Part shown: positions 1-34,534 of the stretch, in pieces | Layout: each line of letters starts with the position of its first letter | Position numbering within the stretch: the first letter of the stretch is position 1 | Virus record (IMG/VR): IMGVR_UViG_2671181127_000013 | Coordinates: 1 to 37,174 of that record | Source: a virus | Taxonomy: Duplodnaviria > Heunggongvirae > Uroviricota > Caudoviricetes | Length of the DNA: 37,174 bases | Reading direction: 5' to 3' (one strand) | Notes under the pieces: generated by a model | Told to the model about the DNA's origin: nothing | The model's database searches: none | The model's input: the letters and a program-made list of their open reading frames with translations, nothing else | Translations under genes and position numbers: made by a program

Positions 1-141
1 TTACTGCTTACACTGTAAGAACGCCGCAAACTCCGCTCCCCAGATGTTCATCCGTATTTCACACAGCGAACCATGTAACATCCAGATGATGAGGATTGCC
101 GTCACGCAGAACGTGATGGCCATAAGCGATTTTTGCGACAT
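1..141 (-). CDS. Hok/Gef-family type I toxin, 46 aa (copy A)
   Basis: My translation of the reverse complement: MSQKSLMAITFCVTAILIIWMLHGSLCEIRMNIWGAEFAAFLQCKQ; N-terminal TM helix plus SLCEIR...AAF motif as in plasmid R1 Hok (KSLCEIR...EVAAF); AAGGAG SD upstream; below the 60-aa ORF-track cutoff. Confidence 0.6.
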   Translation of the reverse strand: MSQKSLMAITFCVTAILIIWMLHGSLCEIRMNIWGAEFAAFLQCKQ

Positions 142-472: not shown

Positions 473-613
473 TTACTGTTTACACTGCAAGAACGCCGCA
501 AATTCTGACCACATGATGTTAAGTCTGAACTCACACGGCGAACGGTGTATCATCCAGATGGCCAACAACATGGTTAAGCATAAAATGCTCACGATGATCG
601 TTTTTTGCGGCAT
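473..613 (-). CDS. Hok/Gef-family type I toxin, 46 aa (copy B)
   Basis: My translation: MPQKTIIVSILCLTMLLAIWMIHRSPCEFRLNIMWSEFAAFLQCKQ; about 60 percent identical to copy A, same C-terminal EFAAFLQCKQ. Confidence 0.55.
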   Translation of the reverse strand: MPQKTIIVSILCLTMLLAIWMIHRSPCEFRLNIMWSEFAAFLQCKQ

Positions 614-747: not shown

Positions 748-1050
748 TCAGCCGAAAGGCACCCGCGCGTAATGTACTGGTTTTAAAGCCATACCGCAAT
801 CCTCCAGTTGTAGCGTTAACTGACTGCGTCCCTGATGGGATTTGCGCATTGTCTCCCGTGGAATATCTTTATCGTGGAAGATCAACTGAGGCTGGCCAAT
901 AATTCTGTGCACACTTTCCATTGTTGAAAATGTGGCGCTGCACTCAAGGTTATTGCACTGATAGTATTTGTAGCGGATGGTGCCGGTATCATTGGCGGCT
1001 TTACTGGTACGGATCCGGGCAGATGCGCCGCAGAATGGACAATGAAACAT
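748..1050 (-). CDS. ogr: Ogr/Delta-type zinc-finger late-gene transcriptional activator (100 aa)
   Basis: MFHCPFCGASARIRTSK...YYQCNNLECSATFSTMESV matches the P2 Ogr Cys4 zinc finger; start moved to the internal ATG at 1050 (upstream GGGGG SD); the ORF-track N-terminal extension was rejected. Confidence 0.85.
   Translation of the reverse strand: MFHCPFCGASARIRTSKAANDTGTIRYKYYQCNNLECSATFSTMESVHRIIGQPQLIFHDKDIPRETMRKSHQGRSQLTLQLEDCGMALKPVHYARVPFG
771..799 (-). promoter_or_regulatory. Putative sigma70 promoter of hok-like copy B (TTGCGG-17 bp-TACATT), lying inside the 3' end of the ogr ORF
   Basis: Same -35/-10 spacing as the copy A promoter; sits just upstream of the conserved ~160-bp leader. 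Confidence 0.4.
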
Positions 1051-1094
1051 TGATATACCCCCCTGGCTGAACTGGGGTTGAACTCGTCGCCATT

Positions 1095-2219
1095 CTAACC
1101 ATTGCTTTCCTTTTCGGCTATCCACTCGGGTATTCTTGCCTCCAGTTCAAGCCTTGTGGTGAAGCCGCTTCCGTCGATATTGTGTTCCACTTTTGCAATG
1201 AGCCAGTCCTGATTGTCTATCTCGGTTTTAAAGCCGGTTACCGTGCCATGCATTTCAGGGTAAAGCTCCGCTCTGCCCCGGGCCAGCGTGATGGAGAATT
1301 CAGCCGCACCGCGCTGTAATTGCTGCCACCTGGCGGCAGCTGCGCGCTGTGCAGCAATTTCGTTTGGGTAGGTTTTTCTCAGAACGAACACGTTACCTTC
1401 TGCCCCCTCCATGTAGCTGCCTTCCCGGCTGCTGCTCTTTTCAGCGTGAGTTTTTCGTTTTTTTATGTTGACGGCTTTCTTTTTGCCATGATTCAAATCC
1501 AGCCAGTACGCCTTCACCCCTGTGTATGCCTGGCGATCGGCTATTCTGAACTGGTGACTGTCTCCGTCACTGCGTGCCAGTGCAAATGAGGGGAGTGGGC
1601 GCCCGTCAGCTGTCACGCCGCCACCCGGCAGAATGAACAGCAGACAGCCATTTTTGACGGTAGTGATGGCTCCCAGCATATCAGCCATGCGGGTAAGGAA
1701 TGATATGTCGCTTTCTTCCGTCTGGTCGGCATGATCGATTTCAATATCCATAAGCATATCGCTTATCTGGGCTTTCAGTCCGTAACGGTGGGCAATAGCG
1801 GAAACCACGCGTTCAACAGTCACGTCGTGCCAGGATACTTCCCGTTTGACGTTAAATTCCTCCCTGAAGTCTGCGCTGTTTGCACTCAGTGTCAGCCGAT
1901 CCGGAGGTCCTTCATGAGCGACCTCATCAACAATGTAGGTGCCTTTATCAACCAGAGGCTCTCCCTTCCATCCCAGCATGACTCTGATGTGTGTTCCCCG
2001 CCCGGGGAGAGCCAGTTGCCCGTCGGCATCATCCAGCACAAGAGTGACCCTGTCTGCTTCAAACCCCCGGTTGTCTGTCATGGAAAGCGATATCACCCGG
2101 TTATTCAGTTCCTGAAGTGTGTTTTTATCCTGCTCCCTGTCCAGTGAAACGCTGAAATCAGGCATTTTCACCAGTTCTTTCAGGGGGGAATAAACCGTGT
2201 TACCGTTCAGCAATACCAT
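1095..2219 (-). CDS. D: Tail protein D (late control gene D family)
   Basis: LSMTDNRGFEADRVTLVLDDADG motif typical of Phage_GPD; start set at ATG 2219 with GGAGG SD; the longer ORF-track N-terminus overlaps FI and is not credible. Confidence 0.9.
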   Translation of the reverse strand: MVLLNGNTVYSPLKELVKMPDFSVSLDREQDKNTLQELNNRVISLSMTDNRGFEADRVTLVLDDADGQLALPGRGTHIRVMLGWKGEPLVDKGTYIVDEVAHEGPPDRLTLSANSADFREEFNVKREVSWHDVTVERVVSAIAHRYGLKAQISDMLMDIEIDHADQTEESDISFLTRMADMLGAITTVKNGCLLFILPGGGVTADGRPLPSFALARSDGDSHQFRIADRQAYTGVKAYWLDLNHGKKKAVNIKKRKTHAEKSSSREGSYMEGAEGNVFVLRKTYPNEIAAQRAAAARWQQLQRGAAEFSITLARGRAELYPEMHGTVTGFKTEIDNQDWLIAKVEHNIDGSGFTTRLELEARIPEWIAEKESNG

Positions 2220-2373
2220 AATTCCTCCGTTTTTCCCGCCACAGTTGCATACCAGAAACACCACCGGAATGAGTTTGGGTTGTATGTGTATTGCGAGAAA
2301 CCGCAGTTCGTGAAAAAGCTCCCCGTGTTCGTAAAGATCTCTGCTGAACTCACACGAATGCAGGGTGAATAAT

Positions 2374-3561
2374 ATGGCTGAAACCCGTTTCCATGGCGTG
2401 CGGGTCCGGGAGAATGCGGATCTGGTCACGGCCATTAATGATATTGACTCCAGTGTGATTGGTATCGTGGCTGTTGCTGATGATGCTGATGCAAAAACAT
2501 TTCCGCTGGATAAGCCGGTGCTCCTGACGCGCGTTATGGATGTGCTGGGTAAGGCCGGGAAAACCGGCACGCTGTACAAAAGTCTGAAAGCTATTGCCGA
2601 TCAGGTCAGCACCAGAGTTGTTGTGGTGCGGGTTGCTGCTGCGAAGGAGGGGGATGGTCAGCCGACACAAACGCAGCTTGTTATTGGTGAGGTCAAAAAT
2701 GACGGAACCTATACAGGCATGCAGGCGCTCCTGGTGGCTGAACAGAATGAGGCTGTTGGTGTTCGTCCCAGGATCCTGGCTGTGCCATCGCTTGACACCA
2801 AAGAGGTGGTGGCGGCACTGGTAACCGTCGCGAAAAAGCTGCGTGCCTTTGTGTATGCGGGCTGTCCCGGCTGTAATACCGTGCAGGAGGCTGTCACCTG
2901 GCGCGCCGATCTTGCTCACCGTGAAGTTATGCTGATCTGGCCTGATTTTATCGCGTACAACCCTAACAGTGGCCAGAATGAGGCTTTTCCTGCATCTGCG
3001 TATGCGTGCGGGTTGCGTGCGAAGATTGACCACGAGCAGGGCTGGCATAAATCCCTGTCCAATGTGGCAGTGAATAATGTCCTGGGTATTTCTGTGCCGG
3101 TGTTCTGGTCGCTCCAGGCAGAGGACAGTGACGCGGAAACCCTCAATGACAAGGAGATCACCACACTCATTAAACGTAACGGCTTCCGTTTCTGGGGTAA
3201 CCGGACTCTCGACACCACTACCTACACCTTTGAGACCTACACGCGTACGGCGCAGTCGCTGGCGGATACCATCGCCGAATCGCAGTTTGAAACCGTGGAC
3301 AAGCCGCTGACGCCGTCGAACGTGAAGGATGTGTTAAGCGATATCCGGGCAAAACTGAGTGCCCTTGTGACAGCGGGTAAACTTATCGGGGCAGAGTGCT
3401 GGTATGACGTGGTGGATAACGGCACAACGGATCTGCGTCAGGGGATTGTGCGGATCCGCTACAGATATACGCCGGTACCACCGCTTGAAGATCTGGAGCT
3501 TCACCAGACGTTTACTGATGAGTTCTTTGACGGTGCATTTGCATCACTGGGAGGTGAGTAA
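2374..3561 (+). CDS. FI: Tail sheath protein FI
   Basis: Close similarity along its length to P2 gpFI (FPLDKPVLLT, RPRILAVPSLDTKEV, MLIWPDF, GFRFWGNRT, YTRTAQ, PVPPLE). Confidence 0.9.
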   Translation: MAETRFHGVRVRENADLVTAINDIDSSVIGIVAVADDADAKTFPLDKPVLLTRVMDVLGKAGKTGTLYKSLKAIADQVSTRVVVVRVAAAKEGDGQPTQTQLVIGEVKNDGTYTGMQALLVAEQNEAVGVRPRILAVPSLDTKEVVAALVTVAKKLRAFVYAGCPGCNTVQEAVTWRADLAHREVMLIWPDFIAYNPNSGQNEAFPASAYACGLRAKIDHEQGWHKSLSNVAVNNVLGISVPVFWSLQAEDSDAETLNDKEITTLIKRNGFRFWGNRTLDTTTYTFETYTRTAQSLADTIAESQFETVDKPLTPSNVKDVLSDIRAKLSALVTAGKLIGAECWYDVVDNGTTDLRQGIVRIRYRYTPVPPLEDLELHQTFTDEFFDGAFASLGGE

Positions 3562-4070
3562 TGGCGGTACCAAACAAACTTCGCGTTTTCACGGTGTACA
3601 TCGATGGCGAAAACAAGCTGGGGCGGGTGACGTCCTTCACGCCGCCTAAACTGACCCGAAAAACGGAGTCCTTCCGTGGTGCCGGGATGCCCGGCAGTGT
3701 TTCCGTCGACTTTGGTCTTGATGATGGTGCACTGGATCTCTCTTTTGCGGTAGGCGGCGCAGATGCCCACCTTTTCTCCCGTTATGCCGGGTCACTTGAT
3801 GAAGTCCGTCTTCGCTTTTCCGGTGAGTACTATTCGGATGCGGATATCAGATATGTGGATATTGAGGTCCGCGGGCGCATCACTGAAATCGATATGGGGG
3901 AGGCGAAGCAGGGTGAAGACACTGAGCACAGTTATTCGATGAAAAACACCTGGTACAGACTGAGTGTGGACGATCGGGAAAAAATCGAATTTGATGTGCT
4001 GAATTTTATCTGGCGCATTGACGGTAAGGATGTGCTGCCGGATCGCACCCGCTCGATGCTGGGCTTCTGA
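3561..4070 (+). CDS. FII: Tail tube protein FII
   Basis: 169 aa directly after FI with ATG overlapping the FI stop and GGAGGTGA SD; position and size match P2 gpFII. Confidence 0.85.
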   Translation: MAVPNKLRVFTVYIDGENKLGRVTSFTPPKLTRKTESFRGAGMPGSVSVDFGLDDGALDLSFAVGGADAHLFSRYAGSLDEVRLRFSGEYYSDADIRYVDIEVRGRITEIDMGEAKQGEDTEHSYSMKNTWYRLSVDDREKIEFDVLNFIWRIDGKDVLPDRTRSMLGF

Positions 4071-4117
4071 TTATTGTTTAACAGAGAACGGCGGGGATCC
4101 CGCCGTGGAGACTGAAA

Positions 4118-4507
4118 ATGGATAAAGAAACGGAAATGGCCACTGACACTGCCGTCAGTAACGGGGAGGCTTCCGCGGTGGCAGTTGCCGCTACGGCTGC
4201 ACCTAAGAACGTGGTGAAGCTGACGGTGCCTGTTGTGCGCGGAGATGTGTCGTACAGTGAAATTAAAATCGGACCGCTGGCGAATCAGGCCGGATCGCTG
4301 CGTGGGCTGTCTTTGCTTGCGCTTTACAACATGAACTGTGATGCCATGGTCACCTGGCTTGCGCGTGTGACAGAGCCAAAACTTAAGGAGGCCGAAATGT
4401 ATGCCATGAATACGGCGGATTTTACGGCGCTGAGCTCGGCGGCGGTTAATTTTTTCGCACCCTCGGGGTCGAATGCACCGGCACCGGAGAACACGGCAGA
4501 GCCGTAA
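4118..4507 (+). CDS. E: Tail assembly chaperone E (E/E' frameshift pair)
   Basis: Position between FII and T; slippery TTTTTTC near its 3' end with an open -1 frame running to the T start. Confidence 0.7.
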   Translation: MDKETEMATDTAVSNGEASAVAVAATAAPKNVVKLTVPVVRGDVSYSEIKIGPLANQAGSLRGLSLLALYNMNCDAMVTWLARVTEPKLKEAEMYAMNTADFTALSSAAVNFFAPSGSNAPAPENTAEP

Positions 4508-4654
4508 CCTGTCTTTGCTTTGACTGCATTGAAGATCCCGTTGCGGATATTGCTGTTATTTTTAACTGGCCGCCCGCAGAGATATTTGCAATGACGCCTG
4601 CAGAGGTGGTCGCCTGGCGTGAGCGGGCGGCTGCCAGAAGCGGAAGTCACAATC

Positions 4655-7447
4655 ATGATGAATAATCTGCATATCAGGGTTGCTCTGGCGGCGGCAGACA
4701 CCCTGACACAACCTCTCAGGCGCGCCCGCGAAACCGTGGGCGCGCTTTCTGATTCCCTCCGTGAAACTCAGGACTCCATCCGCTCGCTTGAACGGCAGAG
4801 TGAAGCCTTTGCTGCGGCACAGACTAAATTTGACGAAGCCACCCGGAAAATTGCCGCTGTTCAGCAGCAACTGAACCGTCTGCAGCAGGCGGAGCGTGAG
4901 GGTACCGTGCTCAGTGAACGGCAGCGTGAAATGATGGCTTCGCTGACCACCCGGCTTGAACGTCTGAACCGGGTGAGGGATGTACATCAGCGACGCCTGG
5001 AGGATTCACGCCGGGAGCTGGAGAGACACGGTATTGCCGCAGAGGGCAGCAGTCAGACCATACAGGCAGCCATTCGCCGGACGGCAGAGTATAACGAAGA
5101 GCTGGCGCGACAGCGGCAGGCACTCGCACAGGTGACCCGTGCACAGCAACGCTATGAACAGGCGCAGGAGCGACTCGGGCGGATACGTAATGCCGGTGCG
5201 GCGGCACTGGCTGCCGGTGCAGCAGGACTTTACGCTGGCGGGCGTGCTGTTGCGCCGGTGATGGATCTCCAGCGTCATGGTGCCGTCATTGCGGCTCAGG
5301 CAGGAGAGGGCGCGTCAGATGCCGTGGGGTATACCGGGGTTATAAACCACATGGTTCATACCGGTATCACACCGGATGCACAACTGGCGGCTGAAGCTGT
5401 GGGTGCTGTCCGCTCCACTCTGGGTGGGCTGGGGGCGGTTAGTGAGAATGAACTGACCCGAATCACCCGAAAAATGCTGGATATGCAGGCCGTGATGGGG
5501 GGCGATATCCCGCAGCACATTCAGGCGGCTGCCATCATGATCAAAAACGGTCTTGCACGCAGCAGTGACGAGGCGGTTGATCTGATGGTGGCGGGCATGC
5601 AGCGCATGGGGCCGGTTATGCGCGATGAGCTGCCTGAGATCCTTCACGAGTATTCGACCCATTTTCGTAACATGGGGCTGACAGGGTCGGAAACCATGAC
5701 GCTCCTTGCGGATATGGCGCAGCAGGGGAAGTTTGCGCTGGATAAAACCGGCGATGCCATCAAGGAGTTCAGTATTCGCGGCTCCGATATGTCAAAGGCG
5801 AGTGCTGAAGCGTATGCGCTTATCGGGCTGGATGCAGCCAGGATGTCATCGGCTGTAGCCAGTGGTGGAACGGCTGCACGGGCTGCGCTGCAGAAAACAG
5901 CCTCGGGTCTGTTGCAGATCGTCGATCCGGCTGAGCGGGCCAATGCGGCCATCGCACTTTTTGGTACACCGGTTGAAGATCTGTCTGTCGATCAAATCCC
6001 TGCCTTTCTTGGCGCGCTGGCGCGGGTGTCTGACCGTATGGCTGACGTGTCTGGTGTGGCGGACCGGATGGGGCAAACCCTGCGTGACAATCTGAGTGGT
6101 GATGTGGCGCGGCTTACCGGGACGTTCAGCGCGCTGAGAAGTGGGATTATCGGGGAGATTACGGACGATCTGCGTGGGCTTGTCCGGATGGCCACAGCGT
6201 GGGGTGAGCGTCTGCAGGCGTGGGTGAATGCGCATCCGGAACTGGTGCGAATGATTGCGCTGACGACGGGAGCGGTGCTGGCGTTAACCACAGCGATGGG
6301 GGCGTTGTCCGTTGCGGCCTGGATGGTTGTCGCACCGTTACTGAAACTGCGTCTGGGGCTTGCCCTGCTTCGCGCGATCCCGGCCGGACTCTCTGTTGCC
6401 GGTACGCTGTTTGGCGGACTGACGGGTGTGATTTCAGCCGTGGGGGCTGCGCTGGGGGCGCTGACCTGGCCGGTTGTGGTGGCGGTGGGAGCCCTGGTCG
6501 GTGGTGCTCTGCTGATCTGGCGCTACTGGGATCGGGTCAGGGCGTTTGTGAGCGGATTTATTGAAGGGGTACAGTCAGCACTGGCGCCCTTCATGGCGAC
6601 AGCCTCCCGTTTTGCGCCGCTGCTGGATCTGGTTTCAGGGGCACTGTCCCGTATTCTGGGATGGTTTAAATCCCTGTTAACGCCGGTCTCCTCCACGCGT
6701 GATTTGCTTGAGCAGTGCACCTCTGCCGGGCAGACGTTCGGGAGCACTCTGGCCGGTGCGTTAGCCACGGTTTTTTCGCCCCTGAAAGCTCTGATTGACG
6801 GTCTGGCGTGGGTGCTGGAAAAACTCGGTGTTCTGCCCGGTGAAGCTGAGCGGGTTAAGCGAAAACTGGATGAGGCCCGTAAAACGCCGGTGGCATGGGA
6901 GTGGGATCCGGAACAGAAAAAAATGGTTCAGAAGGCGTGGCACTGGTCGCCTCCTGGTGGGGCCAGTGTGCCTTCCGGCGCCTCCGGTACACAGCCTCCG
7001 CCGGTGGCGCTCCCTGCGGGGATAGCGCCGGACGGTAACCGTAACGTTCTCCGTCACCTGAAAGGCATTGAGGGGAATACCGGTGGTCTGCTGGCTGAAA
7101 ACCGTAAACGTATCGGACCCGGAGATATTGTGTTTAAACATCTTCCACGGGCGCTGGCGGTCCGGGGGCAGTGGCATGAACCTGTCGTTGCGCCGTCTTC
7201 CGGCGGAATGCGCGCGCTGCCACAGGAGGAGATTCAGGTGCAGCAATGGCCGACGGCACGCCCGGCGCCACGAATGCACCAGCAGGAAACCTTCGCCAGC
7301 GCCTTTCAGGGGGAGATACATGTGCATCTTCACGGGGTGAGTTCGTATAATCCCCGGGAACTGGCGCGCATGGTTGGTGACGCTGTCAGGGCGGAAATGA
7401 ACAGAATGGCACGTGCCGGAACCGGCAGCTTCCGCGATCGCGACTGA
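4655..7447 (+). CDS. T: Tail tape measure protein T
   Basis: About 930 aa, coiled-coil N-terminal region, central Ala/Gly-rich hydrophobic segments; start chosen at ATGATG 4655 rather than the GTG at 4619. Confidence 0.85.
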   Translation: MMNNLHIRVALAAADTLTQPLRRARETVGALSDSLRETQDSIRSLERQSEAFAAAQTKFDEATRKIAAVQQQLNRLQQAEREGTVLSERQREMMASLTTRLERLNRVRDVHQRRLEDSRRELERHGIAAEGSSQTIQAAIRRTAEYNEELARQRQALAQVTRAQQRYEQAQERLGRIRNAGAAALAAGAAGLYAGGRAVAPVMDLQRHGAVIAAQAGEGASDAVGYTGVINHMVHTGITPDAQLAAEAVGAVRSTLGGLGAVSENELTRITRKMLDMQAVMGGDIPQHIQAAAIMIKNGLARSSDEAVDLMVAGMQRMGPVMRDELPEILHEYSTHFRNMGLTGSETMTLLADMAQQGKFALDKTGDAIKEFSIRGSDMSKASAEAYALIGLDAARMSSAVASGGTAARAALQKTASGLLQIVDPAERANAAIALFGTPVEDLSVDQIPAFLGALARVSDRMADVSGVADRMGQTLRDNLSGDVARLTGTFSALRSGIIGEITDDLRGLVRMATAWGERLQAWVNAHPELVRMIALTTGAVLALTTAMGALSVAAWMVVAPLLKLRLGLALLRAIPAGLSVAGTLFGGLTGVISAVGAALGALTWPVVVAVGALVGGALLIWRYWDRVRAFVSGFIEGVQSALAPFMATASRFAPLLDLVSGALSRILGWFKSLLTPVSSTRDLLEQCTSAGQTFGSTLAGALATVFSPLKALIDGLAWVLEKLGVLPGEAERVKRKLDEARKTPVAWEWDPEQKKMVQKAWHWSPPGGASVPSGASGTQPPPVALPAGIAPDGNRNVLRHLKGIEGNTGGLLAENRKRIGPGDIVFKHLPRALAVRGQWHEPVVAPSSGGMRALPQEEIQVQQWPTARPAPRMHQQETFASAFQGEIHVHLHGVSSYNPRELARMVGDAVRAEMNRMARAGTGSFRDRD

Positions 7448-7457
7448 GGTGAAAAAG

Positions 7458-7949
7458 ATGATGATGATTTATGGGATGTTTGTGTTTCAGTTAAGTACCC
7501 TGCCGCATCAGCAGGTGGAACAGAGTAAACGCTGGCGACACGTCAGTAATGAACGGGTTAACCGTTCATCCTCCTGGCAGTATATTGGCTCTGGTGAAGA
7601 TCACATCACGATGTCCGGTGTGCTCTGTCCGGAAATCACCGGCGGGGAGGTGTCACTGACTGCCCTGAACACCCTGGCCTACACAGGATTACCCTGGCCA
7701 CTGATTGATGGTGTCGGACAGATTTACGGGATGTATGTCATTACGGAAATCAGGACCACCCGTCAGGAGCTGGATCGCTATGGCATGGCCCGCAAAATTG
7801 AGTTCACTGTCAGCTTTCAGCGATGCAATGAAGATCTGCGTGAGCGTCTTCAGTCGGGCTCGGTGGGTGATCTGATGGCAGGATTAAAAAACAGCGCGTC
7901 GTCGGCCCTGTCGTCGGCGTCCTCTGCGCTGTCTGGTCTCATGTTGTGA
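7458..7949 (+). CDS. U: Tail protein U
   Basis: MMMIYGMFVFQLSTLPHQ...PLIDGVGQIYGMYVITEI...IEFTVSFQR resembles P2 gpU; start at 7458 with GAGGTG SD. Confidence 0.85.
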   Translation: MMMIYGMFVFQLSTLPHQQVEQSKRWRHVSNERVNRSSSWQYIGSGEDHITMSGVLCPEITGGEVSLTALNTLAYTGLPWPLIDGVGQIYGMYVITEIRTTRQELDRYGMARKIEFTVSFQRCNEDLRERLQSGSVGDLMAGLKNSASSALSSASSALSGLML

Positions 7950-25742: not shown

Positions 25743-26060
25743 TCATATTGCGGTTCTTGAGCTGATAATGCTTTGTGCCAGCAACTGCCAGCCTTCTTTC
25801 ATCTGTCCGTATTTGTCCTGATATCTGTTTACCTGCAAGTTCCCGTGCACCTGTACCAGGTCGCCTTTTTTGTGTTTTGCCAGTTCTTCGTGCTGCTTCC
25901 CGAATGCGATAAGGTAAAGCCACATTGTGGTTGACTGTTCTGCGCCATGGCCGGGCAGTGATATCGCCAGTCGTGCAGCTGTTACATCGGTGCCTCTGGA
26001 TGATTTTCTTGTCGTCGGGTCTTCCGCCAGTCGTCCCCGTGTTGCAATCTGCGTTGTCAT
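25743..26060 (-). CDS. SSB-like OB-fold protein (105 aa)
   Basis: Pattern L..DP..R......V...RLA.S.........W....AFGK.AE....KKGD.V.V.G.L....Y.DK.G parallels E. coli SSB OB-fold core; start at ATG 26060 with GGAGA SD. Confidence 0.5.
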   Translation of the reverse strand: MTTQIATRGRLAEDPTTRKSSRGTDVTAARLAISLPGHGAEQSTTMWLYLIAFGKQHEELAKHKKGDLVQVHGNLQVNRYQDKYGQMKEGWQLLAQSIISSRTAI

Positions 26061-26083
26061 ATTTGTCTCCGTTGGTGGTTTAG

Positions 26084-26431
26084 TTATTGGACTGATATGA
26101 CTGGCAGATCTCCGCCAGCGCCGTAGATAAACAGAATTCGCTTCATGACTTCGCTGCGCTTGCAGACTTCGATGACTGATTTTTCCTGTTGCCATTCAGC
26201 CCGTTGCGCCAGCTCCAGTCGTTCCTCTTCCGTTGGCTTCCGGTAATGCGTTATCTTGTCCGTGTACCCGTCCACAACCAGCAGGCCTTCCCGTACCATT
26301 TTTCCGGCGGCCTGATTGATGACGGTTCTTTTCACGCCCAGTTTTTCTACCAGTTCCGGTGCGCTGAAGCGTGCGTGCGTTTCCAGGTAGCGTAAAATGA
26401 TTTCCTTTCCGGTCATTCCTGGGGTCTTCAT
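26084..26431 (-). CDS. Putative winged-helix DNA-binding protein (115 aa)
   Basis: Start at ATG 26431 with AAGGAG SD; EIILRYLETHARFSAPELVEKLGVKRTVINQAAGKMVREGLL resembles a wHTH. Confidence 0.45.
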   Translation of the reverse strand: MKTPGMTGKEIILRYLETHARFSAPELVEKLGVKRTVINQAAGKMVREGLLVVDGYTDKITHYRKPTEEERLELAQRAEWQQEKSVIEVCKRSEVMKRILFIYGAGGDLPVISVQ

Positions 26432-26679
26432 TTGGTGGCTCCTTCGTTGTTCCGGCGCTCCCGGAGTTCGGTCAGTGCTGCCAGTAAATTTTCCCACCAT
26501 GTTTCTTCCACGACCGGATTTTGGCGTGAAAGCAGCTGTTGCGCCGACTCAATCATGCTGTTCAGGTCCCTGTCGCTGATCGCCCTGGTGCTGTTAATGG
26601 TGTGTTGCTGTCTGGTGCTCATGATGTCTGTGGTTCTCCTGTTACTTGCGGTGCTGCTTTCTGGCGGCTGAATGTACAT
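26428..26679 (-). CDS. Hypothetical protein (start uncertain; alternative ATG at 26622)
   Basis: ORF with ATGA overlap to the downstream gene. Confidence 0.35.
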   Translation of the reverse strand: MYIQPPESSTASNRRTTDIMSTRQQHTINSTRAISDRDLNSMIESAQQLLSRQNPVVEETWWENLLAALTELRERRNNEGATK

Positions 26680-27043
26680 AACTTGCTATGGCCGCCTTGC
26701 GGTTAATGCGCTTCATCGCCCTGGCTAAATCTTCGTTGTGTTTCCTGATATCCTTTTCGTGATATGCCTTCATGATCCTCCCGGCTGGCGTCAGTGGTTC
26801 TGGTGCTCCCGTGTTCCTCAGTCTCAGGGCTGCGATAAAGTCGCCGCTGTCTCCCCATGGTCTGGCGTTCAGGATGTCGGCAGTCATACTTTCGGTACTC
26901 CTGTCTGGACGGGCTATGGTGATTTCCAGCTGGTCACCTGGCTGCGGTCTTCTTATCAGTCCTCTCAGCGTCAGCGCCGGTAATCTCTTGGTCATGACGA
27001 CGCTGAACTCTCGTTGCTGAAGCGTGCAGTTGAATCGCGTCAT
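26642..27043 (-). CDS. Hypothetical protein (133 aa) downstream of A
   Basis: ORF overlapping the end of gene A by 4 nt. Confidence 0.4.
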   Translation of the reverse strand: MTRFNCTLQQREFSVVMTKRLPALTLRGLIRRPQPGDQLEITIARPDRSTESMTADILNARPWGDSGDFIAALRLRNTGAPEPLTPAGRIMKAYHEKDIRKHNEDLARAMKRINRKAAIASYVHSAARKQHRK

Positions 27044-29562
27044 TCATCCCCCTTCAGCTGTGCTACTTCCTTCAGGCTTCCGGTGCTTTCATCCCAGTGA
27101 ACAATCCGCCCGTCAGGCAGGCGAACGCGCGCCCCGCGATACACGGAAAGCGCCGCACTACTGTGTAACTCCTCGCCCGTTGTACTCAGAGTACTGGCGA
27201 TCAACCTGGTGGTCATATCCGGTTTTGCGAGTGCCGCACCGGCATATACCACGCCTTCAGGTGCGGGGAACCCGCCGCTGTTTGCGGTTTTTGTGGATTT
27301 CTGGTCATTTTTCAGCTGTTGGGTGAGCTGTTTTCTCTGTACTGGAGTCAGTGACCTTAACCACTCACCCGGATCACCTTCCGGTACGATTAGTTTTTGT
27401 TCTTTCCTCCCTTCCGGTGGTGGTGTTTTGTCCGTTTCGTTGTTTGTTTTTTCATCATGGCGACAGTTATTGCCACGAGTCCAAGGTGCGGCGAAGCCGC
27501 CCCCAACGTCAAAATCCTCGTCCGTGCTGTTGTCGGCTTTCGCTTCTTTTCTGACCAGTTTCCACTCGTCCGGATGGGTGCAGATGGTGTAGCGCTCGCC
27601 GAGCGACGGGGCACAAATTCCGTAGATGCGCTGCGGGAATTCGCCGTAGTCGTTGGCCTCATCTGCGGTTTCGTATGCGGTGCGGATCAGGTACAGGTTG
27701 CGTGGAATGAGCACGCCGCCCTGACGGTTGATGTAGGTGGCAAAACACCCCACGTCAGCGGCGGCCAGAATGGCGTCAATGTCGTCATGGTCCAGGCGCT
27801 TCGGTGATGCGGGGTTACGCTCCATTTGTCCGGCAAGGCGGCGGAGTTCACGCCATACCTGGCGGGGCGGGATACCGAAGAACTGGAACTGCCGGATGCG
27901 GTGGAGACTCGCCCAGGCAATGGCGTTTTCCACGGTTTCCGCCATGGTTTTTCCCGATTCTTTATCGGCGTAAGGTTTGCCGGTTTTCGGGTCATTGTCG
28001 TGAAAGGTGCTGGCGTCCAGGTTCTTGCCAATATAGGTTGCGATGTAGCTTGCCGGTGTGCCTTTTGCCGGGTCGATTTTTTCGCACTTGAAGCGCGGAG
28101 AAATATCATTCCCCAGTTCTGCGCGATCTGATTTGATTGCTGCGTCACGCATGATTTCAATGATGCGTTCTTCATTGTCCGGGGCGGTGAATACCAGCAT
28201 GTGCCAGTGCGGTGTGCCGTCATGGTGTGGCTCAACGGTGCGCACCCCGTACCAGCTCAGGCCTTCTTTGTTGAGTTTTTTTCTTGCAGCTGCAAAGACG
28301 TCGTAAACCAGATAATCACTGGCATCGCGCACGGTGGCACCGTTGTATTTCGGGTTCAGGCTGCCGTCCTCGTTTACGCTGTGAAAGCGGGAAGGGCAGG
28401 TCACTGTCACGAAGAACGCGGAGTCACCACGCGATTCGGCGACCTGTTCCATCCCTCTGACGCAGGCCATCATCTCGTTGCGGCGGTTGCGCGGATTCCC
28501 CAGCCCTGACCAGTACACGTCCTCCAGGCTCAGGCGTTCACCGTCTTCGTTTTCAATGTCCCAGCTTTTGAGAAAATCACGGGTGCGCTGGCGTTTCTCC
28601 CGGAATTCCTGGAGTGACTCATGGCTGATGTAGGGGGATGCCTTGCGCGATACTCTTCCGGCGGCACGCAGTAATTCCTCCCGCCAGAGATCAGCGAGGT
28701 GGCGCAGCTGGTTGTTCCACCAGGTGGCGCAGGTGATACGCATTACCGCGCCCGGTACCAGTTCAGGGTCTGGTGCCGTGCGGCGGTCACGTCTGATCTC
28801 GAGTGACGGCCAGTATGGTGGGTTCACGCCCAGTTTTATTGCCATGCGCGCCAGCTGCTGGTAAGTCAGCAACCAGGTAAACAGGTTATCGTCGCCTTTT
28901 CCTGTCCGCTCAGTAACTTCATCACATATGCGTTCCAGTTCGGTGGAAAATGCCGCCGCCGTTAGTGTGGCAAGGCGCTGAATTTGATCACGGTTGAGTT
29001 GTGGCAGCATGAGTAATTCATCAAGGCGATGACGCGCTGCGGTGGCTTTGAATGCCGTCGTGGCGAAGCATTCATTCACCTGTTCGATGCGTTTCAGGCG
29101 TGTGCGCAGTCCACGGCGAACGAAGTTATCGGCCACGTGAGTGTTGTTGTTTTTCACGCCTTCATTGCGGGCGCTTTGTTGTTTGCGGTTTAAACGCGCC
29201 AGATCACGAATGAGCACGTTGCCAAGAAACGAGGGCAGGGTGCGAAGTTCTGCCATGGCTTCCGATACCAGCGTTGGCGGATTTTCTCGTTTGTGTCTCG
29301 CCAGTTTTTCCAGTCTGATCCGGCGCTCTTCGTCGTGGTGAAGATGCGAATTAATTCGCTTGCCTTCGTCTGTGTTTGTCAGGAAGGAGACGGTTTCTTC
29401 ATCCAGTCTGGCATCAATGCGAATGTCTTCGTTGATGTAGCTCTGAATGGCCTGGCGTAATGCGGTTGGTTGCGCTCTGCCGAACGTTTCAGGATCGATA
29501 ACCGGTAGCGGGGCGTTCCACGGGTACGCCAGTTGTGCGTTATGGTCGCTCATGCGTCGCAC
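27040..29562 (-). CDS. A: Replication initiation protein A (rolling-circle nickase)
   Basis: 840 aa with GTPHWHMLVF (HxH metal-binding motif of gpA-type initiators). Confidence 0.9.
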   Translation of the reverse strand: MRRMSDHNAQLAYPWNAPLPVIDPETFGRAQPTALRQAIQSYINEDIRIDARLDEETVSFLTNTDEGKRINSHLHHDEERRIRLEKLARHKRENPPTLVSEAMAELRTLPSFLGNVLIRDLARLNRKQQSARNEGVKNNNTHVADNFVRRGLRTRLKRIEQVNECFATTAFKATAARHRLDELLMLPQLNRDQIQRLATLTAAAFSTELERICDEVTERTGKGDDNLFTWLLTYQQLARMAIKLGVNPPYWPSLEIRRDRRTAPDPELVPGAVMRITCATWWNNQLRHLADLWREELLRAAGRVSRKASPYISHESLQEFREKRQRTRDFLKSWDIENEDGERLSLEDVYWSGLGNPRNRRNEMMACVRGMEQVAESRGDSAFFVTVTCPSRFHSVNEDGSLNPKYNGATVRDASDYLVYDVFAAARKKLNKEGLSWYGVRTVEPHHDGTPHWHMLVFTAPDNEERIIEIMRDAAIKSDRAELGNDISPRFKCEKIDPAKGTPASYIATYIGKNLDASTFHDNDPKTGKPYADKESGKTMAETVENAIAWASLHRIRQFQFFGIPPRQVWRELRRLAGQMERNPASPKRLDHDDIDAILAAADVGCFATYINRQGGVLIPRNLYLIRTAYETADEANDYGEFPQRIYGICAPSLGERYTICTHPDEWKLVRKEAKADNSTDEDFDVGGGFAAPWTRGNNCRHDEKTNNETDKTPPPEGRKEQKLIVPEGDPGEWLRSLTPVQRKQLTQQLKNDQKSTKTANSGGFPAPEGVVYAGAALAKPDMTTRLIASTLSTTGEELHSSAALSVYRGARVRLPDGRIVHWDESTGSLKEVAQLKGDE

Positions 29563-29966
29563 TCCCCGGCAGTTGCCACCTGAAACGCCGCGCGGTACAG
29601 CACGAGAAGGCGCTGATATTCACCGATAAAGTCTTCTGCGGTGTATATGCCTTTCACGGCCACGCTGTGGGTTGTCATTTCCAGAACCAGCGCCATCTCT
29701 GATGACGACCAGCTGATGGTGGTGCTGTCGGTGCCGTTGATGTGAAATAAACCCAGTCCATCACCATCACCTTTCACGTCCACGCGGTAACGACCGTCAA
29801 CGGTGAAGGAGAAATCCCCGGATGTGGTGATGCTGCGGGCAGCCTGTTTACAGGCGCGGCGGTAATAGTCGTGCCAGTCGTTCAGGCGGGAAGCCAGCCG
29901 GGGATCCACTGCCCACATCCAGTTAAAAAAATCCTGAATATCTGAAAGTCCCTTAACGCTCTTCAT
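29550..29966 (-). CDS. Hypothetical protein (138 aa) upstream of A
   Basis: ORF overlapping the A start. Confidence 0.45.
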   Translation of the reverse strand: MKSVKGLSDIQDFFNWMWAVDPRLASRLNDWHDYYRRACKQAARSITTSGDFSFTVDGRYRVDVKGDGDGLGLFHINGTDSTTISWSSSEMALVLEMTTHSVAVKGIYTAEDFIGEYQRLLVLYRAAFQVATAGECDA

Positions 29967-30034
29967 GAGAACCTCCGGTAACAGATGTGCGGAAGCCTCC
30001 CGCGTACGGGTGCGGGATGGCTTCAGGATGTTGT

Positions 30035-30262
30035 TTAGTGGTGGTGTTGCTGGTTGATAAGGTCCTGCAGCTCCGCGAGATCATCCGCCAGGTAGCTGAA
30101 AACAGCGGCACAGTAACGGTTTGACAGAGCGTGAGTGCGCTCATGCAGCATATTGATGTGCATGATTTGCGCGACGCGTGAGGCGCGGAAAAGTCTGCGG
30201 TTGATTTCAGTGCGGATGTGAAGACGCTCAGCGCGGGCGCGCTGTTGCTTGCGGTTTGCCAT
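30035..30262 (-). CDS. Hypothetical basic protein (75 aa)
   Basis: ORF; Arg-rich N-terminus, His-rich C-terminus. Confidence 0.35.
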   Translation of the reverse strand: MANRKQQRARAERLHIRTEINRRLFRASRVAQIMHINMLHERTHALSNRYCAAVFSYLADDLAELQDLINQQHHH

Positions 30263-30441
30263 GGTGTGGCCTCTTTGCTAGTAAGTTCTGAAAACTCACC
30301 ATCCAGAGCTGCGAAACTGTGGGTGGCGAGACGTACGAGGTTCGCAGTACCGGCTAGCAAAGAACCCGGCCCGACCGAAGTCGGCCCCGTACGCCCCGCC
30401 ATTATTCTGACGCGAAAAAGACGTGGCGATACAGTACGCAC

Positions 30442-30462
30442 AAAAAAACCGCTGGCGCGGTT
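30442..30462 (-). terminator. Putative rho-independent terminator separating early-left genes from the replication module
   Basis: Minus-strand ACCGC-GCCA-GCGGT hairpin followed by T7. Confidence 0.4.
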
Positions 30463-30645
30463 GTGCGCTTTGCTAGTCGGCGGGCTGCGAAACCCGGCAC
30501 CCGTTTTATGAGATGCGGGAAAACTGTAACCCGACCAGACGAGCGCTGGCAAGCGGTTTTTGTGTTGCGTGCTGATGTGGTTAGAATGTGGCGAATTAAT
30601 ATCACCTGGCAACTGGTGATTGTCTGCATACGCGGGGTGTTTCTG

Positions 30646-31110
30646 ATGAGTGATAAGCTCCCTTCTGATTACGACATTCTTTTTGACCTGTGGTACAGCT
30701 ACTGGCTTGAACGTATTACATGTGTGTTTCACCGACGCGTTTCTGCTGCTCTGCGAATCAGCGCCTTTCTGGTTGGTGTTGCGGCGTTTGTCCTGTGTGA
30801 TTTTGTTGTGTTGGTACTCTTCAGTGTGGTTCTGTTTCTGCTCTGGCAGTGCATGGCTGCCAGTTTTGAACGCAGGGCTGAAAAGGCTGAATGGCAGACA
30901 GTCAGTTACCAGCGCCTTATCAGTCAGCGCCATGTGATTAGTAAGGAATGCATGATTGCGCGCCTCTCCTTTGTTGAGGAAAGTGACAGTCCCATCATGG
31001 AGTGCATGATTAATCTTGCCTGGAATAAAGCCTGTGAGGCGGTTGGCAGCTCTTCGCGCAATCATGTTTCGATCTCCGGTCGGTTACTCAGTCGCCTGTG
31101 CGGCTTTTGA
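30646..31110 (+). CDS. Putative membrane protein (about 154 aa) encoded opposite to the early operon
   Basis: ATG at 30646; 30-residue hydrophobic stretch ISAFLVGVAAFVLCDFVVLVLFSVVLFLLW; possible TTGTGT-16 bp-TAGAAT promoter upstream. Confidence 0.35.
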   Translation: MSDKLPSDYDILFDLWYSYWLERITCVFHRRVSAALRISAFLVGVAAFVLCDFVVLVLFSVVLFLLWQCMAASFERRAEKAEWQTVSYQRLISQRHVISKECMIARLSFVEESDSPIMECMINLAWNKACEAVGSSSRNHVSISGRLLSRLCGF

Positions 31111-31434
31111 TTTGCCAAACAGCTGTGCGACAGTTTCGCCGGCCGCCCGATTTTCCGGGAATGACACCGGCATGTTCAGCTTGAGTGCCATTGCGTACTC
31201 AGCCCGTGCGCCAGCGGACTCTTCCCATCCATCCAGTAAGTAAATGGCATCGGCACACATGAGCATCGGAATACAAATGCTCATGTACTGCTGCTGGCTT
31301 AATCCGTCAGGCAGCACGGCAGGATTAAGAACGATGTTTCCGGCGCACCGAAGTTTCAGGTCCTCCACGCAAAATGCCGTCCTGTTGTGGTCTTTGCATC
31401 CGGTCATGGGACCGGCGATATAAATCACTGCCAT
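31084..31434 (-). CDS. DUF4406-family protein (nucleoside 2-deoxyribosyltransferase-like fold)
   Basis: N-terminal VIYIAGPMTG motif typical of DUF4406. Confidence 0.5.
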   Translation of the reverse strand: MAVIYIAGPMTGCKDHNRTAFCVEDLKLRCAGNIVLNPAVLPDGLSQQQYMSICIPMLMCADAIYLLDGWEESAGARAEYAMALKLNMPVSFPENRAAGETVAQLFGKSKAAQATE

Positions 31435-31643
31435 GCTTTACCTCCCGTATTGCGTGTTGCTGTCAGCACGCGTACTTCTTCCACGTTTGTGGCGCAGAAG
31501 TGCGAACCGTTGATAAGGCGGATGTGATGCATCTCTGGATTGCGTGAGCCCTGGCGTGTCATGCCGGGGTCAATCAGGCTTTCGTCTACCTCGTACTGAC
31601 GGCCGTTGGCTGTGAATCTGATAACGGTTGACTCCTGGATCAT
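31425..31643 (-). CDS. Hypothetical protein (72 aa)
   Basis: ORF with overlapping start/stop in the early operon. Confidence 0.4.
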   Translation of the reverse strand: MIQESTVIRFTANGRQYEVDESLIDPGMTRQGSRNPEMHHIRLINGSHFCATNVEEVRVLTATRNTGGKAWQ

Positions 31644-31876
31644 TGCTGACCCCTTTGTCCGGCAGATTTCTCGTTGAGCTGCTTTTTAAGGGCGGCGATT
31701 TCACTTTCCTGATCCTGAATCACCCGGATTGCTTCCATGGTGATCCTCAGTAAGATTGCTGAAGTGATAACGAGCTCTGGTCTTCCAGCAGCTGCGACAA
31801 CTTTTGCTGTTTCCTCGTGTGCACGGGCGATGAGACGCAATTCCCGCAAAAGCTCTTTGTTGTTTTCGCTATTCAT
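31640..31876 (-). CDS. Hypothetical coiled-coil protein (78 aa)
   Basis: ORF in the early operon. Confidence 0.4.
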   Translation of the reverse strand: MNSENNKELLRELRLIARAHEETAKVVAAAGRPELVITSAILLRITMEAIRVIQDQESEIAALKKQLNEKSAGQRGQQ

Positions 31877-31911
31877 TTTCTGACTCCGGTGTTACTGATT
31901 CATCTGTTTAT

Positions 31912-32892
31912 TCACGTACTGGCAGGGGTAAACATCACGCTGTAAGTTGCATCTCCCGTCACAGGTCCGCAGTCCGGGCAGTAGCCACCGCCATAGTGAC
32001 CGCAGGCGTTGCACTGTCTCAGGGTGGCGATAACTTCCGGTGCTGGTTCGCGGGTTCTTGCTCCAACGCTTCGTGGTGCCTGTATGCAGTTCATCCGGTA
32101 ACCCCGATAAATGCGTCTGGTTTCCGGTGTGTCGGAATTGGAGATGGTGATTCTGGTCATGCCGCCCGTTTCCTGCGAAAGGCGGTCAAGTGCTGCCCTC
32201 AGGCGAACGTGCTCGTGTTCATCGAATGGTTTTCCGTAGGCGGTGAAATTGCCCTCGCCACTGAACCGCAGGTAAGGGGGATCGCAGTACACGCAAAGCG
32301 TGTTGCCCATGCCGAACAGGTGACTGGCAGAGCTCAGCGTATCCTTAAAATCTGCGTGGATAAGCAGCGTTTGGGTGCTGTTTGCCTTGTCTGCAAATGC
32401 GCGGATTTCCCGCTCAGGGAAGTAGGGTTTTCGGTAGCCGCCGAAAGGCACGTTAAAATCACCTTTTCCGTTCACCCGGTACAGGCCATTAAAACAGTGC
32501 CGGTTGAGGTACAAAAACATGGCGGCCAGTCGCAGTTCACGGCGGTCGCTTATTCCCGTTCTGCTACTCAGGAAGGCATGATTCTCTGCGTTAAAGGTTT
32601 CGCGAATGATGAGATAGTCACCCCTGTTGTTGTGGTTCAGGAACAGGGTTTTCGCCTCGTCGATCAGACTGTCGGTGTTGTCCCGTGCTGCCCGCCAGAA
32701 ATTAATCAGCGCACCATTGGAATCACCCAGGATGTAACGCTTGTAACTGGTGTTCATGAATACCGATGCGCCACCCACGAACGGTTCAACCAGGCAGTCA
32801 GCTTCTGGCAGATGCGCCTTCAGTGTGTTCATGATGCGGCTTTTGCCACCCACCCATTTCAGCGGTGTGCCGGATAACAGTTCTTTGCTCAT
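31912..32892 (-). CDS. DNA adenine N6-methyltransferase (Dam/D12 class) with C-terminal Cys-rich extension
   Basis: LKWVGGK N-terminal motif and DPPY catalytic motif; C-terminal CNACGHYGGGYCPDCG. Confidence 0.85.
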   Translation of the reverse strand: MSKELLSGTPLKWVGGKSRIMNTLKAHLPEADCLVEPFVGGASVFMNTSYKRYILGDSNGALINFWRAARDNTDSLIDEAKTLFLNHNNRGDYLIIRETFNAENHAFLSSRTGISDRRELRLAAMFLYLNRHCFNGLYRVNGKGDFNVPFGGYRKPYFPEREIRAFADKANSTQTLLIHADFKDTLSSASHLFGMGNTLCVYCDPPYLRFSGEGNFTAYGKPFDEHEHVRLRAALDRLSQETGGMTRITISNSDTPETRRIYRGYRMNCIQAPRSVGARTREPAPEVIATLRQCNACGHYGGGYCPDCGPVTGDATYSVMFTPAST

Positions 32893-33116
32893 AACGCGGC
32901 CTCTTTGTTATAGGTTTCGTGCGTTAATAAATCCCATGACTTCCCGTTGTTTTTGCTCAGTAATCGCCAGCGAAAACCGATTCTTATTACCAGGTAGTCG
33001 TGGGGTTTTATACGTGAAAAATTCCGCACGCCGTCGCGGAATAAACGCAGCGATGCGCGGGCTTTTCTTTCCACGTTCAGGGGGGGGCAGCAACACACAT
33101 TCAGGATGGCGGCCAT
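32889..33116 (-). CDS. Hypothetical protein (75 aa)
   Basis: ORF coupled to the downstream methyltransferase. Confidence 0.35.
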   Translation of the reverse strand: MAAILNVCCCPPLNVERKARASLRLFRDGVRNFSRIKPHDYLVIRIGFRWRLLSKNNGKSWDLLTHETYNKEAAL

Positions 33117-33125
33117 GGCTTCACC

Positions 33126-34516: not shown

Positions 34517-34534
34517 GGCTGAATCCTTTATTTA

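What the first reader, a model, noticed from the sequence alone, without database searches (positions are those of the whole stretch)
4448..4660. Programmed -1 frameshift site for the tail chaperone E/E' pair
Seen: slippery heptamer T-TTT-TTC (about 4450-4456) near the 3' end of E; the -1 frame is then open for ~66 codons (RTLGVECTGTGEHGRAV...WRERAAARSGSHNHDE) and ends at a TAA overlapping the ATGATG start of T. Established: P2 E/E' and lambda G/GT chaperones are made by a conserved -1 frameshift at this position in long-tailed phages.
Basis: partly seen in the sequence, partly recalled or inferred. Interest (0 to 1): 0.35.

Follow-up and report, generated by a model that had tools for sequence, protein, structure and literature searches.

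The report
P2-type tail chaperone frameshift site
This is the ordinary, well-known -1 ribosomal frameshift site that lets a P2-like E. coli prophage make two tail-assembly proteins (E and E+E') from one start codon. It is real and conserved, but it is not a new kind of thing.

Summary
T TTT TTC lies at 4450-4456, in the frame of gene E (4118-4507), between the tail tube gene (3561-4070) and the tape-measure gene T (4655-7447). The -1 frame is closed by TAA at 4447-4449, immediately before the heptamer. It then stays open for 69 codons to TAA 4663-4665, overlapping T by 11 nt.

The heptamer and the open frame are not significant on their own. The decisive evidence is this:
- The -1 product matches Pfam Phage_P2_GpE (E=4e-14) and phrog_1756 (E=7e-26).
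- The 182-aa fusion aligns end to end with P2 gpE+E' (38% identity, E=1e-32), with the junction in the same alignment column.
- The only canonical start in that frame (ATG 4591) would cut the domain in half.
- All 80 distinct E genes analysed, from diverse bacteria and phages, keep an in-frame X XXY YYZ heptamer at this position. The preceding codon always ends in T, whichever of eight codons it is.
- Relatives that break the T-run carry A AAT TTT or C CCT TTC instead. This favours tandem tRNA slippage over transcriptional slippage.

No downstream RNA structure is conserved, as reported for P2. Public annotation misses the fusion: it calls E "hypothetical" and starts E' at ATT. Verdict: a new member of a known kind, of low interest.

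The parts
4118..4507 (+). Gene E. It encodes the zero-frame tail assembly protein (129 aa). An RBS (GGAG, 4108-4111) precedes the ATG at 4118.
   Evidence: ORF. phrog_103 E=1e-28. 37% identity to P2 gpE, E=6e-18. Pfam Phage_TAC_7 scores 17.8 bits, below its cut-off of 25. RefSeq calls it 'hypothetical protein'.
4447..4449 (+). TAA stop in the -1 frame, immediately 5' of the heptamer. It sets the upstream limit of the shift window.
   Evidence: Translation of the -1 frame. Eprime_open = 4450.
4450..4456 (+). Slippery heptamer T TTT TTC. The zero-frame codons are TTT and TTC, both Phe.
   Evidence: The homologous position carries TTTTTTG, TTTTTTA, TTTTTTC, A AAT TTT or C CCT TTC in all 80 distinct E genes. 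The H_HH.U_UU.Y class is among the most efficient in E. coli (PMC4066793).
4456..4665 (+). E' coding segment in the -1 frame: 69 codons plus TAA at 4663-4665. Its first 52 nt overlap the end of E and its last 11 nt overlap the start of T.
   Evidence: PF06528 Phage_P2_GpE E=6e-14 on this segment alone. phrog_1756 E=7e-26. 47% identity to P2 E'. The only canonical start in this frame is ATG 4591, giving 24 aa.
4655..7447 (+). Gene T, the tail tape measure protein. By analogy with lambda it is the presumed binding partner of E and E+E'.
   Evidence: PF10145 E=1e-15. RefSeq 'phage tail tape measure protein'.
3561..4070 (+). Gene FII, the major tail tube protein, the upstream neighbour that defines the canonical position.
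   Evidence: PF04985 E=8e-49.

Best explanation
This is the E/E+E' recoding site of a P2-like (Peduoviridae-type) prophage of E. coli.

**Proposed mechanism.** Most ribosomes translate E from ATG 4118 to TAA 4505-4507 and make the 129-aa protein E. A minority slip back one base. This happens when the two tRNA-Phe occupy TTT (P site, 4451-53) and TTC (A site, 4454-56). They re-pair on TTT-TTT (4450-55), and translation continues in the -1 frame from CGC 4456 to TAA 4663-65. The result is a 182-aa E+E' protein. It has the same N-terminal 113 residues as E and a C-terminal GpE (E') domain.

**Inferred function.** By homology with P2, where both E and E+E' are essential tail proteins, and by analogy with lambda G/GT, the shared E part binds the tape measure protein. 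The E' part recruits tail tube subunits. The fixed ratio set by the frameshift rate is needed for correct tail assembly.

**Shown here:** the anatomy, the homology in both frames, the lack of an independent start, and the nucleotide-level conservation of a slippery heptamer.

**Inferred, not shown:** that slippage occurs in vivo, its efficiency, and the chaperone role.
For: 1. **Position.** The site lies between the tube gene and the tape measure gene.
2. **-1 frame product.** It matches PF06528 at 52 bits against a cut-off of 23, E=4e-14, and phrog_1756 at E=7e-26. In the fusion, that alignment reaches back to residue 111, which is the slip site.
3. **Fusion protein.** It aligns end to end with the annotated P2 E+E' join at 38% identity, E=1e-32. 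The junction falls in the same column, at invariant F112.
4. **No independent start.** There is no ATG, GTG or TTG in the -1 frame between 4450 and the start of the domain. The first canonical start is ATG 4591, inside the domain. PGAP had to use ATT 4528.
5. **Heptamer conservation.** In all 80 distinct E genes analysed, drawn from 7 phage records, 76 of the 80 bacterial genome loci (4 decayed ones excluded) and the window, the codon before the conserved Phe ends in T. It does so across eight different codons, against 19% T at other third positions. The Phe codon is TTT in 78 of 80, against 59% elsewhere.
6. **Replacement heptamers.** Relatives that break the T6 run keep another efficient heptamer: A AAT TTT in P88_4B11 and Shae_phiSM, and C CCT TTC in Klebsiella L036 and L038. 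All belong to the H_HH.U_UU.Y class, which was found highly frameshift-prone in E. coli (PMC4066793).
7. **Precedent.** P2 makes E (91 aa) and E+E' (142 aa) by a -1 shift at TTTTTTG with no downstream structure (PMC3091744).
Against: - There is no direct evidence of frameshifting in this prophage, and its efficiency is unknown.
- No stimulatory element was found. Downstream folds are no better than shuffles (z = -0.05 to -1.6). RNAalifold on 13 homologues predicts 0 pairs. Rfam gives nothing relevant. The same is reported for P2, so this is not a discrepancy.
- E falls below the Pfam Phage_TAC_7 gathering score (17.8-20.6 against 25), and no NCBIfam model matches.
- The heptamer and the open frame are individually unremarkable.
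- The prophage may not be fully functional. RefSeq flags tail-fibre fragments as partial in a near-identical strain.
Confidence: 0.93

Rival explanations
1. Transcriptional slippage. RNA polymerase stutters on the T6 run and adds one U to a fraction of transcripts. Standard translation of those mRNAs then gives the same E+E' protein (...NFFR...).
For: The site is a homopolymer run of six T. A 1-nt insertion yields the same product as a -1 ribosomal shift (inference from the sequence). Sharma et al. note that runs of A or U can produce indels in mRNA (PMC4066793).
Against: - Six T is short for efficient slippage. Known functional cases, from my own knowledge, use about 8-9 or more.
- Homologues at the same column have T-runs broken to AAATTTTATG or CCCTTTCTTG and yet keep a perfect X XXY YYZ heptamer. 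That is what tandem tRNA slippage requires and polymerase slippage does not.
- Conservation covers the reading-frame phase of the heptamer, not just run length.
Confidence: 0.04
2. Independent gene. E' is a separate small protein initiated inside the -1 frame, as in the RefSeq model (45 aa from ATT 4528) or from ATG 4591, with no frameshift.
For: RefSeq/PGAP annotates a stand-alone 45-aa 'GpE family phage tail protein' here and in many E. coli genomes. Several phage records likewise annotate two separate CDSs.
Against: - ATT is a very rare initiator, and no Shine-Dalgarno motif precedes 4528 (sequence CTTTGCTTTGACTGC).
- ATG 4591 would remove half of the PF06528 domain, which starts at residue 29 of E', nt 4540.
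- Amino-acid similarity in the -1 frame extends upstream of 4528, to the slip site (phrog_1756 alignment from residue 111; alignment A1).
- 29 of 88 sources listed have no canonical start at all between the frame opening and the conserved motif.
- In P2 the fusion has been reported experimentally (cited in PMC3091744).
Confidence: 0.02
3. Chance or decayed feature. The heptamer and open -1 frame are relics in a defective prophage, and no E+E' is made or needed.
For: Heptamers and open frames of this length are common in the window. Tail-fibre genes are flagged partial in a near-identical strain. Decayed versions do exist in Symbiopectobacterium.
Against: - Both frames are intact and under evident constraint. 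In 97%-identical E. coli relatives there are 0 substitutions in 4414-4665, against 16-18 in 4139-4413.
- The E' protein is identical across those relatives (WP_032158288.1), and the same 45-aa sequence was seen on about 1000 contigs.
- All neighbouring tail genes are full length.
Confidence: 0.01

Closest known systems
Bacteriophage P2 E / E+E' (FETUD tail operon; Christie et al. 2002, cited in PMC3091744 and PMC5009743)
   Same: - Homologous proteins in both frames: 38% identity over the whole fusion, E=1e-32.
- Same position between FII and T.
- -1 shift at a T-rich heptamer on the same invariant Phe.
- The E' end overlaps the start of T (8 nt in P2, 11 nt here).
- No downstream RNA structure (PMC3091744).
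   Different: - The heptamer is T TTT TTC (Phe-Phe) rather than T TTT TTG (Phe-Leu).
- E is 129 aa with a 29-residue Ala-rich N-terminal extension, against 91 aa in P2.
- The linker between slip site and E' domain is 11 residues longer.
- The E/E' overlap is 52 nt, against 22 nt in P2.
- The FI-U block is inverted relative to D and ogr compared with P2.
Xuanwuvirus / P88-like and Novemvirus Peduoviridae (P88_4B11, Shae_phiSM, PhiR44_2, phiT5282H)
   Same: - These are the closest phage relatives: 45-48% identity of the fusion.
- They share the long E with an N-terminal extension and the long linker, and the same junction column.
   Different: They use A AAT TTT or T TTT TTG. No phage record matches at the DNA level (megablast, no hit).
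Yersinia phage vB_YenM_42.18 (Firavirus) and Yersinia thracica prophage L074
   Same: They use the same T TTT TTC heptamer variant at the same column.
   Different: They have the short P2-type linker and are only 36% identical to the window's fusion.
Phage lambda G / GT tail assembly chaperones (Levin et al. 1993; Xu et al. 2004, 2013, 2014, cited in PMC5009743)
   Same: - Same genomic logic: two overlapping ORFs between the major tail gene and the tape measure gene.
[quoted passage not shown]
- The products share an N-terminus and are made at a fixed ratio.
   Different: - No sequence similarity was detected or tested here.
- Lambda is a siphovirus and uses G GGA AAG.
- The functional analogy (binding the tape measure and recruiting the tube protein) is inferred for P2-type phages.

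Membership tests
P2-type gpE / gpE+E' frameshifted tail assembly protein pair | Located between the tail tube gene (FII) and the tape measure gene (T) | tested here: met
   FII PF04985 at 3561-4070. T PF10145 at 4655-7447. E at 4118-4507.
P2-type gpE / gpE+E' frameshifted tail assembly protein pair | Zero-frame protein homologous to gpE | tested here: met
   BLASTP against P2 gpE: 37% identity, E=6e-18. phrog_103 E=1e-28. Caveat: Pfam PF10109 scores only 17.8-20.6 bits, below its cut-off of 25.
P2-type gpE / gpE+E' frameshifted tail assembly protein pair | -1 frame extension homologous to E' (Pfam PF06528 Phage_P2_GpE) | tested here: met
   52 bits against a cut-off of 23, E=4e-14. 47% identity to P2 E', E=4e-18.
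P2-type gpE / gpE+E' frameshifted tail assembly protein pair | E' frame lacks its own initiation codon upstream of the conserved domain | tested here: met
   No ATG, GTG or TTG between 4450 and 4543. The first canonical start is ATG 4591.
P2-type gpE / gpE+E' frameshifted tail assembly protein pair | In-frame X XXY YYZ slippery heptamer in the E/E' overlap, at the position homologous to the P2 site | tested here: met
   T TTT TTC at 4450-4456, in the same alignment column as the site annotated in P2. The heptamer is conserved in all 80 distinct homologues.
P2-type gpE / gpE+E' frameshifted tail assembly protein pair | Both E and E+E' are produced in vivo, and both are required for tail assembly | not testable with these tools
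   This needs a reporter assay, Western blot, mass spectrometry or genetics. It is known for P2 only from the literature (PMC3091744).
Frameshift sites with an RNA stimulator (downstream hairpin or pseudoknot, or upstream SD-like element) | Conserved downstream secondary structure | tested here: not met
   Fold z-scores are -0.05 to -1.6. RNAalifold predicts 0 pairs in 13 homologues. There is no Rfam match.
Transcriptional-slippage recoding sites | A long homopolymer run (about 8-9 or more) conserved as a run rather than as a phased heptamer | tested here: not met
   The run is only T6. Homologues interrupt it (AAATTTTATG, CCCTTTCTTG) while keeping a phased heptamer.

The most novel reading that the evidence does not exclude
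The T TTT TTC variant is used by only 4 of the 80 distinct homologues, with Phe-Phe decoding and fully cognate re-pairing. It may set a markedly different, probably higher, E:E+E' ratio than P2's T TTT TTG. If so, P2-like phages would tune chaperone stoichiometry by choice of heptamer alone, without any RNA stimulator. The longer linker and tape measure in this lineage (930 aa against 815 aa) might co-vary with that ratio.
Probability: 0.2. Interest if true: 0.25.

Novelty: new member of a known kind. Interest (0 to 1): 0.12.

Why it matters
The practical value is mainly for annotation.
- The 182-aa E+E' fusion of this widespread E. coli prophage lineage is absent from a collection of about 15 billion proteins.
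- RefSeq models it as a "hypothetical protein" plus a 45-aa CDS with an ATT start.
- Recognising the frameshift gives the correct proteome for this prophage.

The comparative data add a clean illustration of selection on a phased slippery heptamer. The preceding codon ends in T in 80 of 80 genes, across eight different codons, and where the T-run is broken a replacement heptamer takes its place. None of this changes what is understood about tail assembly or recoding.

Tried and rejected
- **Megablast against phage records.** The FII-E-T region gave no match.
- **Downstream stimulatory RNA.** Single-sequence folds, a consensus fold of 13 homologues and Rfam all found nothing.
- **NCBIfam.** No match to E or to the fusion.
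- **Original P2 paper.** Christie et al. 2002 is not held in the library. Its content is cited second-hand from PMC3091744.
- **Other candidate frameshift sites in the window.** A heptamer with a longer -1 ORF occurs at several other places. The one I examined, at 30447, has as its "-1 frame" simply the frame of the real 370-aa ORF 29953-31065, so it is an artefact of scanning alternative frames. The others were not examined individually.
- **G_GGG tetramer at 4465-4468.** It was considered as an alternative slip site inside the overlap. It is not conserved in homologues, so it was rejected as the main site.
- **My first script.** It reported 5 loci with no heptamer. Inspection showed that L047 does have GAT TTT TTG. 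The other four (Symbiopectobacterium) are fused or decayed copies that still keep the T6 run.
Full report
**Observation**

The window at 4440-4470 reads CGGCGGTTAATTTTTTCGCACCCTCGGGGTC. The ORF at 4118-4507 encodes 129 aa and starts at an ATG preceded by GGAG. In its frame the codons are AAT (4448-50), TTT (4451-53), TTC (4454-56) and GCA. T TTT TTC at 4450-4456 is therefore a correctly phased X XXY YYZ heptamer.

The -1 frame carries TAA at 4447-4449, immediately before the heptamer. It is then open for 69 codons, from CGC 4456 to TAA 4663-4665, and reads RTLGVECTGTGEHGRAVTCLCFDCIEDPVADIAVIFNWPPAEIFAMTPAEVVAWRERAAARSGSHNHDE. The tape-measure ORF starts at ATG 4655, so E' overlaps it by 11 nt.

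The extension is 69 codons, not about 66. The end is 4665, not 4660.

The motif alone is not evidence. The window contains 35 TTTTTTY sites, against 14 expected, and 241 X XXY YYZ heptamers. About 21% of random frames stay open for at least 69 codons.

**Context**

The window is a P2-like prophage of E. coli. The E-E' segment is 100% identical to the chromosomes of strains STEC17-183 and JNEC-KY179. It is present at 96.7% identity or more, over its full length, in 12 of 5426 complete genomes. In STEC17-183 the prophage lies next to serS and two hok/gef genes.

Pfam identifies these neighbours:
- tail sheath, 2365-3561
- tail tube FII, 3561-4070, E=8e-49
- tape measure, 4655-7447
- gpU, 7413-7949

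E therefore sits in the canonical chaperone position between the tube and tape-measure genes.

**Homology in both frames**

- E matches phrog_103 at E=1e-28 and P2 gpE at 37% identity, E=6e-18.
- E scores below the Pfam Phage_TAC_7 cut-off, at 17.8 bits against 25. No NCBIfam model matches it.
- The -1 product matches Pfam PF06528 (Phage_P2_GpE) at 52 bits against a cut-off of 23, E=4e-14.
- It also matches phrog_1756 at E=7e-26 and P2 E' at 47% identity, E=4e-18.
- The conceptual 182-aa fusion aligns end to end with the curated P2 E+E' join (NP_046780, frameshift annotated in NC_001895) at 38% identity, E=1e-32.
- In a seven-sequence alignment the junction falls in the same column, on an invariant Phe, F112.
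- In the fusion, the phrog_1756 alignment starts at residue 111. Similarity in the -1 frame therefore begins at the slip site, not at the RefSeq start.

**No independent start**

The only canonical initiation codon in the -1 frame is ATG 4591, which gives 24 aa. It lies inside the PF06528 domain, which begins at nt 4540. RefSeq/PGAP nevertheless annotates a 45-aa "GpE family phage tail protein" from ATT 4528 and calls E a "hypothetical protein". The 15 nt upstream of 4528 contain no Shine-Dalgarno-like motif. The fused sequence is absent from a collection of about 15 billion proteins, whereas E and the 45-aa fragment are both present.

**Comparative test of the slippery site**

I gathered 7 phage loci and 80 loci from different bacterial species. 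These were mostly Enterobacterales, with some Sphingobium, Novosphingobium, Collimonas and Pseudomonas. After excluding four decayed Symbiopectobacterium copies, there were 80 distinct E genes. The heptamer at the conserved Phe was distributed as follows:

| Heptamer | Count |
|---|---|
| TTTTTTG | 57 |
| TTTTTTA | 15 |
| TTTTTTC | 4 |
| A AAT TTT | 2 |
| C CCT TTC | 2 |

- The codon before the Phe ends in T in 80 of 80 genes, although it is any of eight codons (CCT, GGT, GAT, AAT, CTT, ACT, AGT, ATT). T occupies 19% of other third positions in these genes.
- The Phe codon is TTT in 78 of 80, against 59% for other Phe codons. The two exceptions are exactly the ones that form C CCT TTC.
- This is selection on a phased nucleotide pattern, not on the protein.
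- The replacement heptamers break the T-run (AAATTTTATG, CCCTTTCTTG), which argues against transcriptional slippage and for tandem tRNA slippage.
- All the variants, including the window's U_UU.U_UU.C, fall in the H_HH.U_UU.Y class. Sharma et al. measured this class as among the most efficient -1 motifs in E. coli. The A-site tetramers U_UU.C and U_UU.U rank second only to A_AA.G, whereas U_UU.G is weak (PMC4066793).

**Stimulators**

Downstream folds of the window, P2 and two relatives are no better than shuffled controls (z = -0.05 to -1.6). RNAalifold on 13 diverse homologues predicts no pairs. Rfam finds nothing relevant. This agrees with the reported absence of structure in P2 and in Burkholderia P2-like phages (PMC3091744).

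**Close relatives**

In two E. coli prophages about 97% identical over this segment, all 16-18 substitutions lie in 4139-4413 and none in 4414-4665. This is consistent with stronger constraint on the dual-coding and E' part. A recombination boundary would give the same picture.

**Mechanism and function**

*Shown:* the anatomy, the homology and the conserved heptamer.

*Inferred from P2 and lambda* (PMC3091744; PMC5009743):
- A minority of ribosomes slip -1 on T TTT TTC.
- The products are E (129 aa) and E+E' (182 aa), which share 113 N-terminal residues.
- Both act as tail assembly chaperones around the tape measure protein, at a ratio fixed by the slip frequency.

**Rivals**

| Rival | Estimated probability | Main reason against |
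|---|---|---|
| Transcriptional slippage | about 0.04 | Phased replacement heptamers in relatives |
| Independent initiation of E' | about 0.02 | No start codon or RBS, and homology extends upstream |
| Non-functional relic | about 0.01 | Both frames are intact and strongly conserved |

**Verdict**

The feature is a new, unannotated member of a long-known kind: the P2 E/E+E' instance of the conserved tail-chaperone frameshift. Interest is low. Its practical value is the annotation correction.

Noticed in passing
window 748-7949 (ogr 748-1050 -, D 1095-2219 -, FI-FII-E-T-U 2365-7949 +): In P2 the order V W J I H G FI FII E T U D ogr is all on one strand. Here the FI-U block is inverted relative to both flanks. 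D and ogr lie upstream of FI and diverge from it. After U come a DUF4376 gene, tail-fibre genes and baseplate genes on the opposite strand.
   Followed up: partly
window 4118-4665: RefSeq/PGAP annotates E as 'hypothetical protein' and E' as a stand-alone 45-aa CDS starting at ATT 4528. The 182-aa frameshift fusion is absent from a collection of about 15 billion proteins. This is an annotation gap that recurs in every RefSeq E. coli record I inspected for this lineage.
   Followed up: yes
L009 1483-1962; L011 1486-1905; L010 and L014: In Symbiopectobacterium (insect symbiont) genomes, E and E' are joined in one continuous frame in L009 and L011. In L009 this is due to an indel downstream of the still-present T6 run. 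L010 and L014 are broken by further frameshifts. These look like hard-wired fusions or decaying prophages.
   Followed up: partly
window 4139-4665 compared with L090 and L091: In the 97%-identical E. coli relatives all 16-18 substitutions fall in 4139-4413 and none in the 252 nt from 4414 to 4665. This could be constraint on the recoding and E' segment, or a recombination boundary.
   Followed up: no
window 13769-15835 (-): A 688-aa ORF, annotated DUF6645 in the near-identical strain, sits between the lysis genes and the tail genes (R/S-like). P2 has no gene in this position, so it may be cargo (a moron).
   Followed up: no
window 1-141 and 473-613 (-): Two tandem Hok/Gef-family toxin genes lie just outside the ogr end of the prophage. 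In strain STEC17-183 serS is the next gene beyond them.
   Followed up: no
window 8559-9899 (-): This region holds an intact 446-aa ORF in the window. In STEC17-183 RefSeq flags the corresponding tail-fibre region as two partial pseudogene fragments. It may be a mosaic tail fibre misjudged by homology, or the prophage may have a damaged fibre.
   Followed up: no
window 25751-34833: The early and replication half of the prophage is only about 92% identical to STEC17-183, whereas the late-gene half is about 99.4% identical. The window therefore comes from a different, mosaic relative of that prophage.
   Followed up: no
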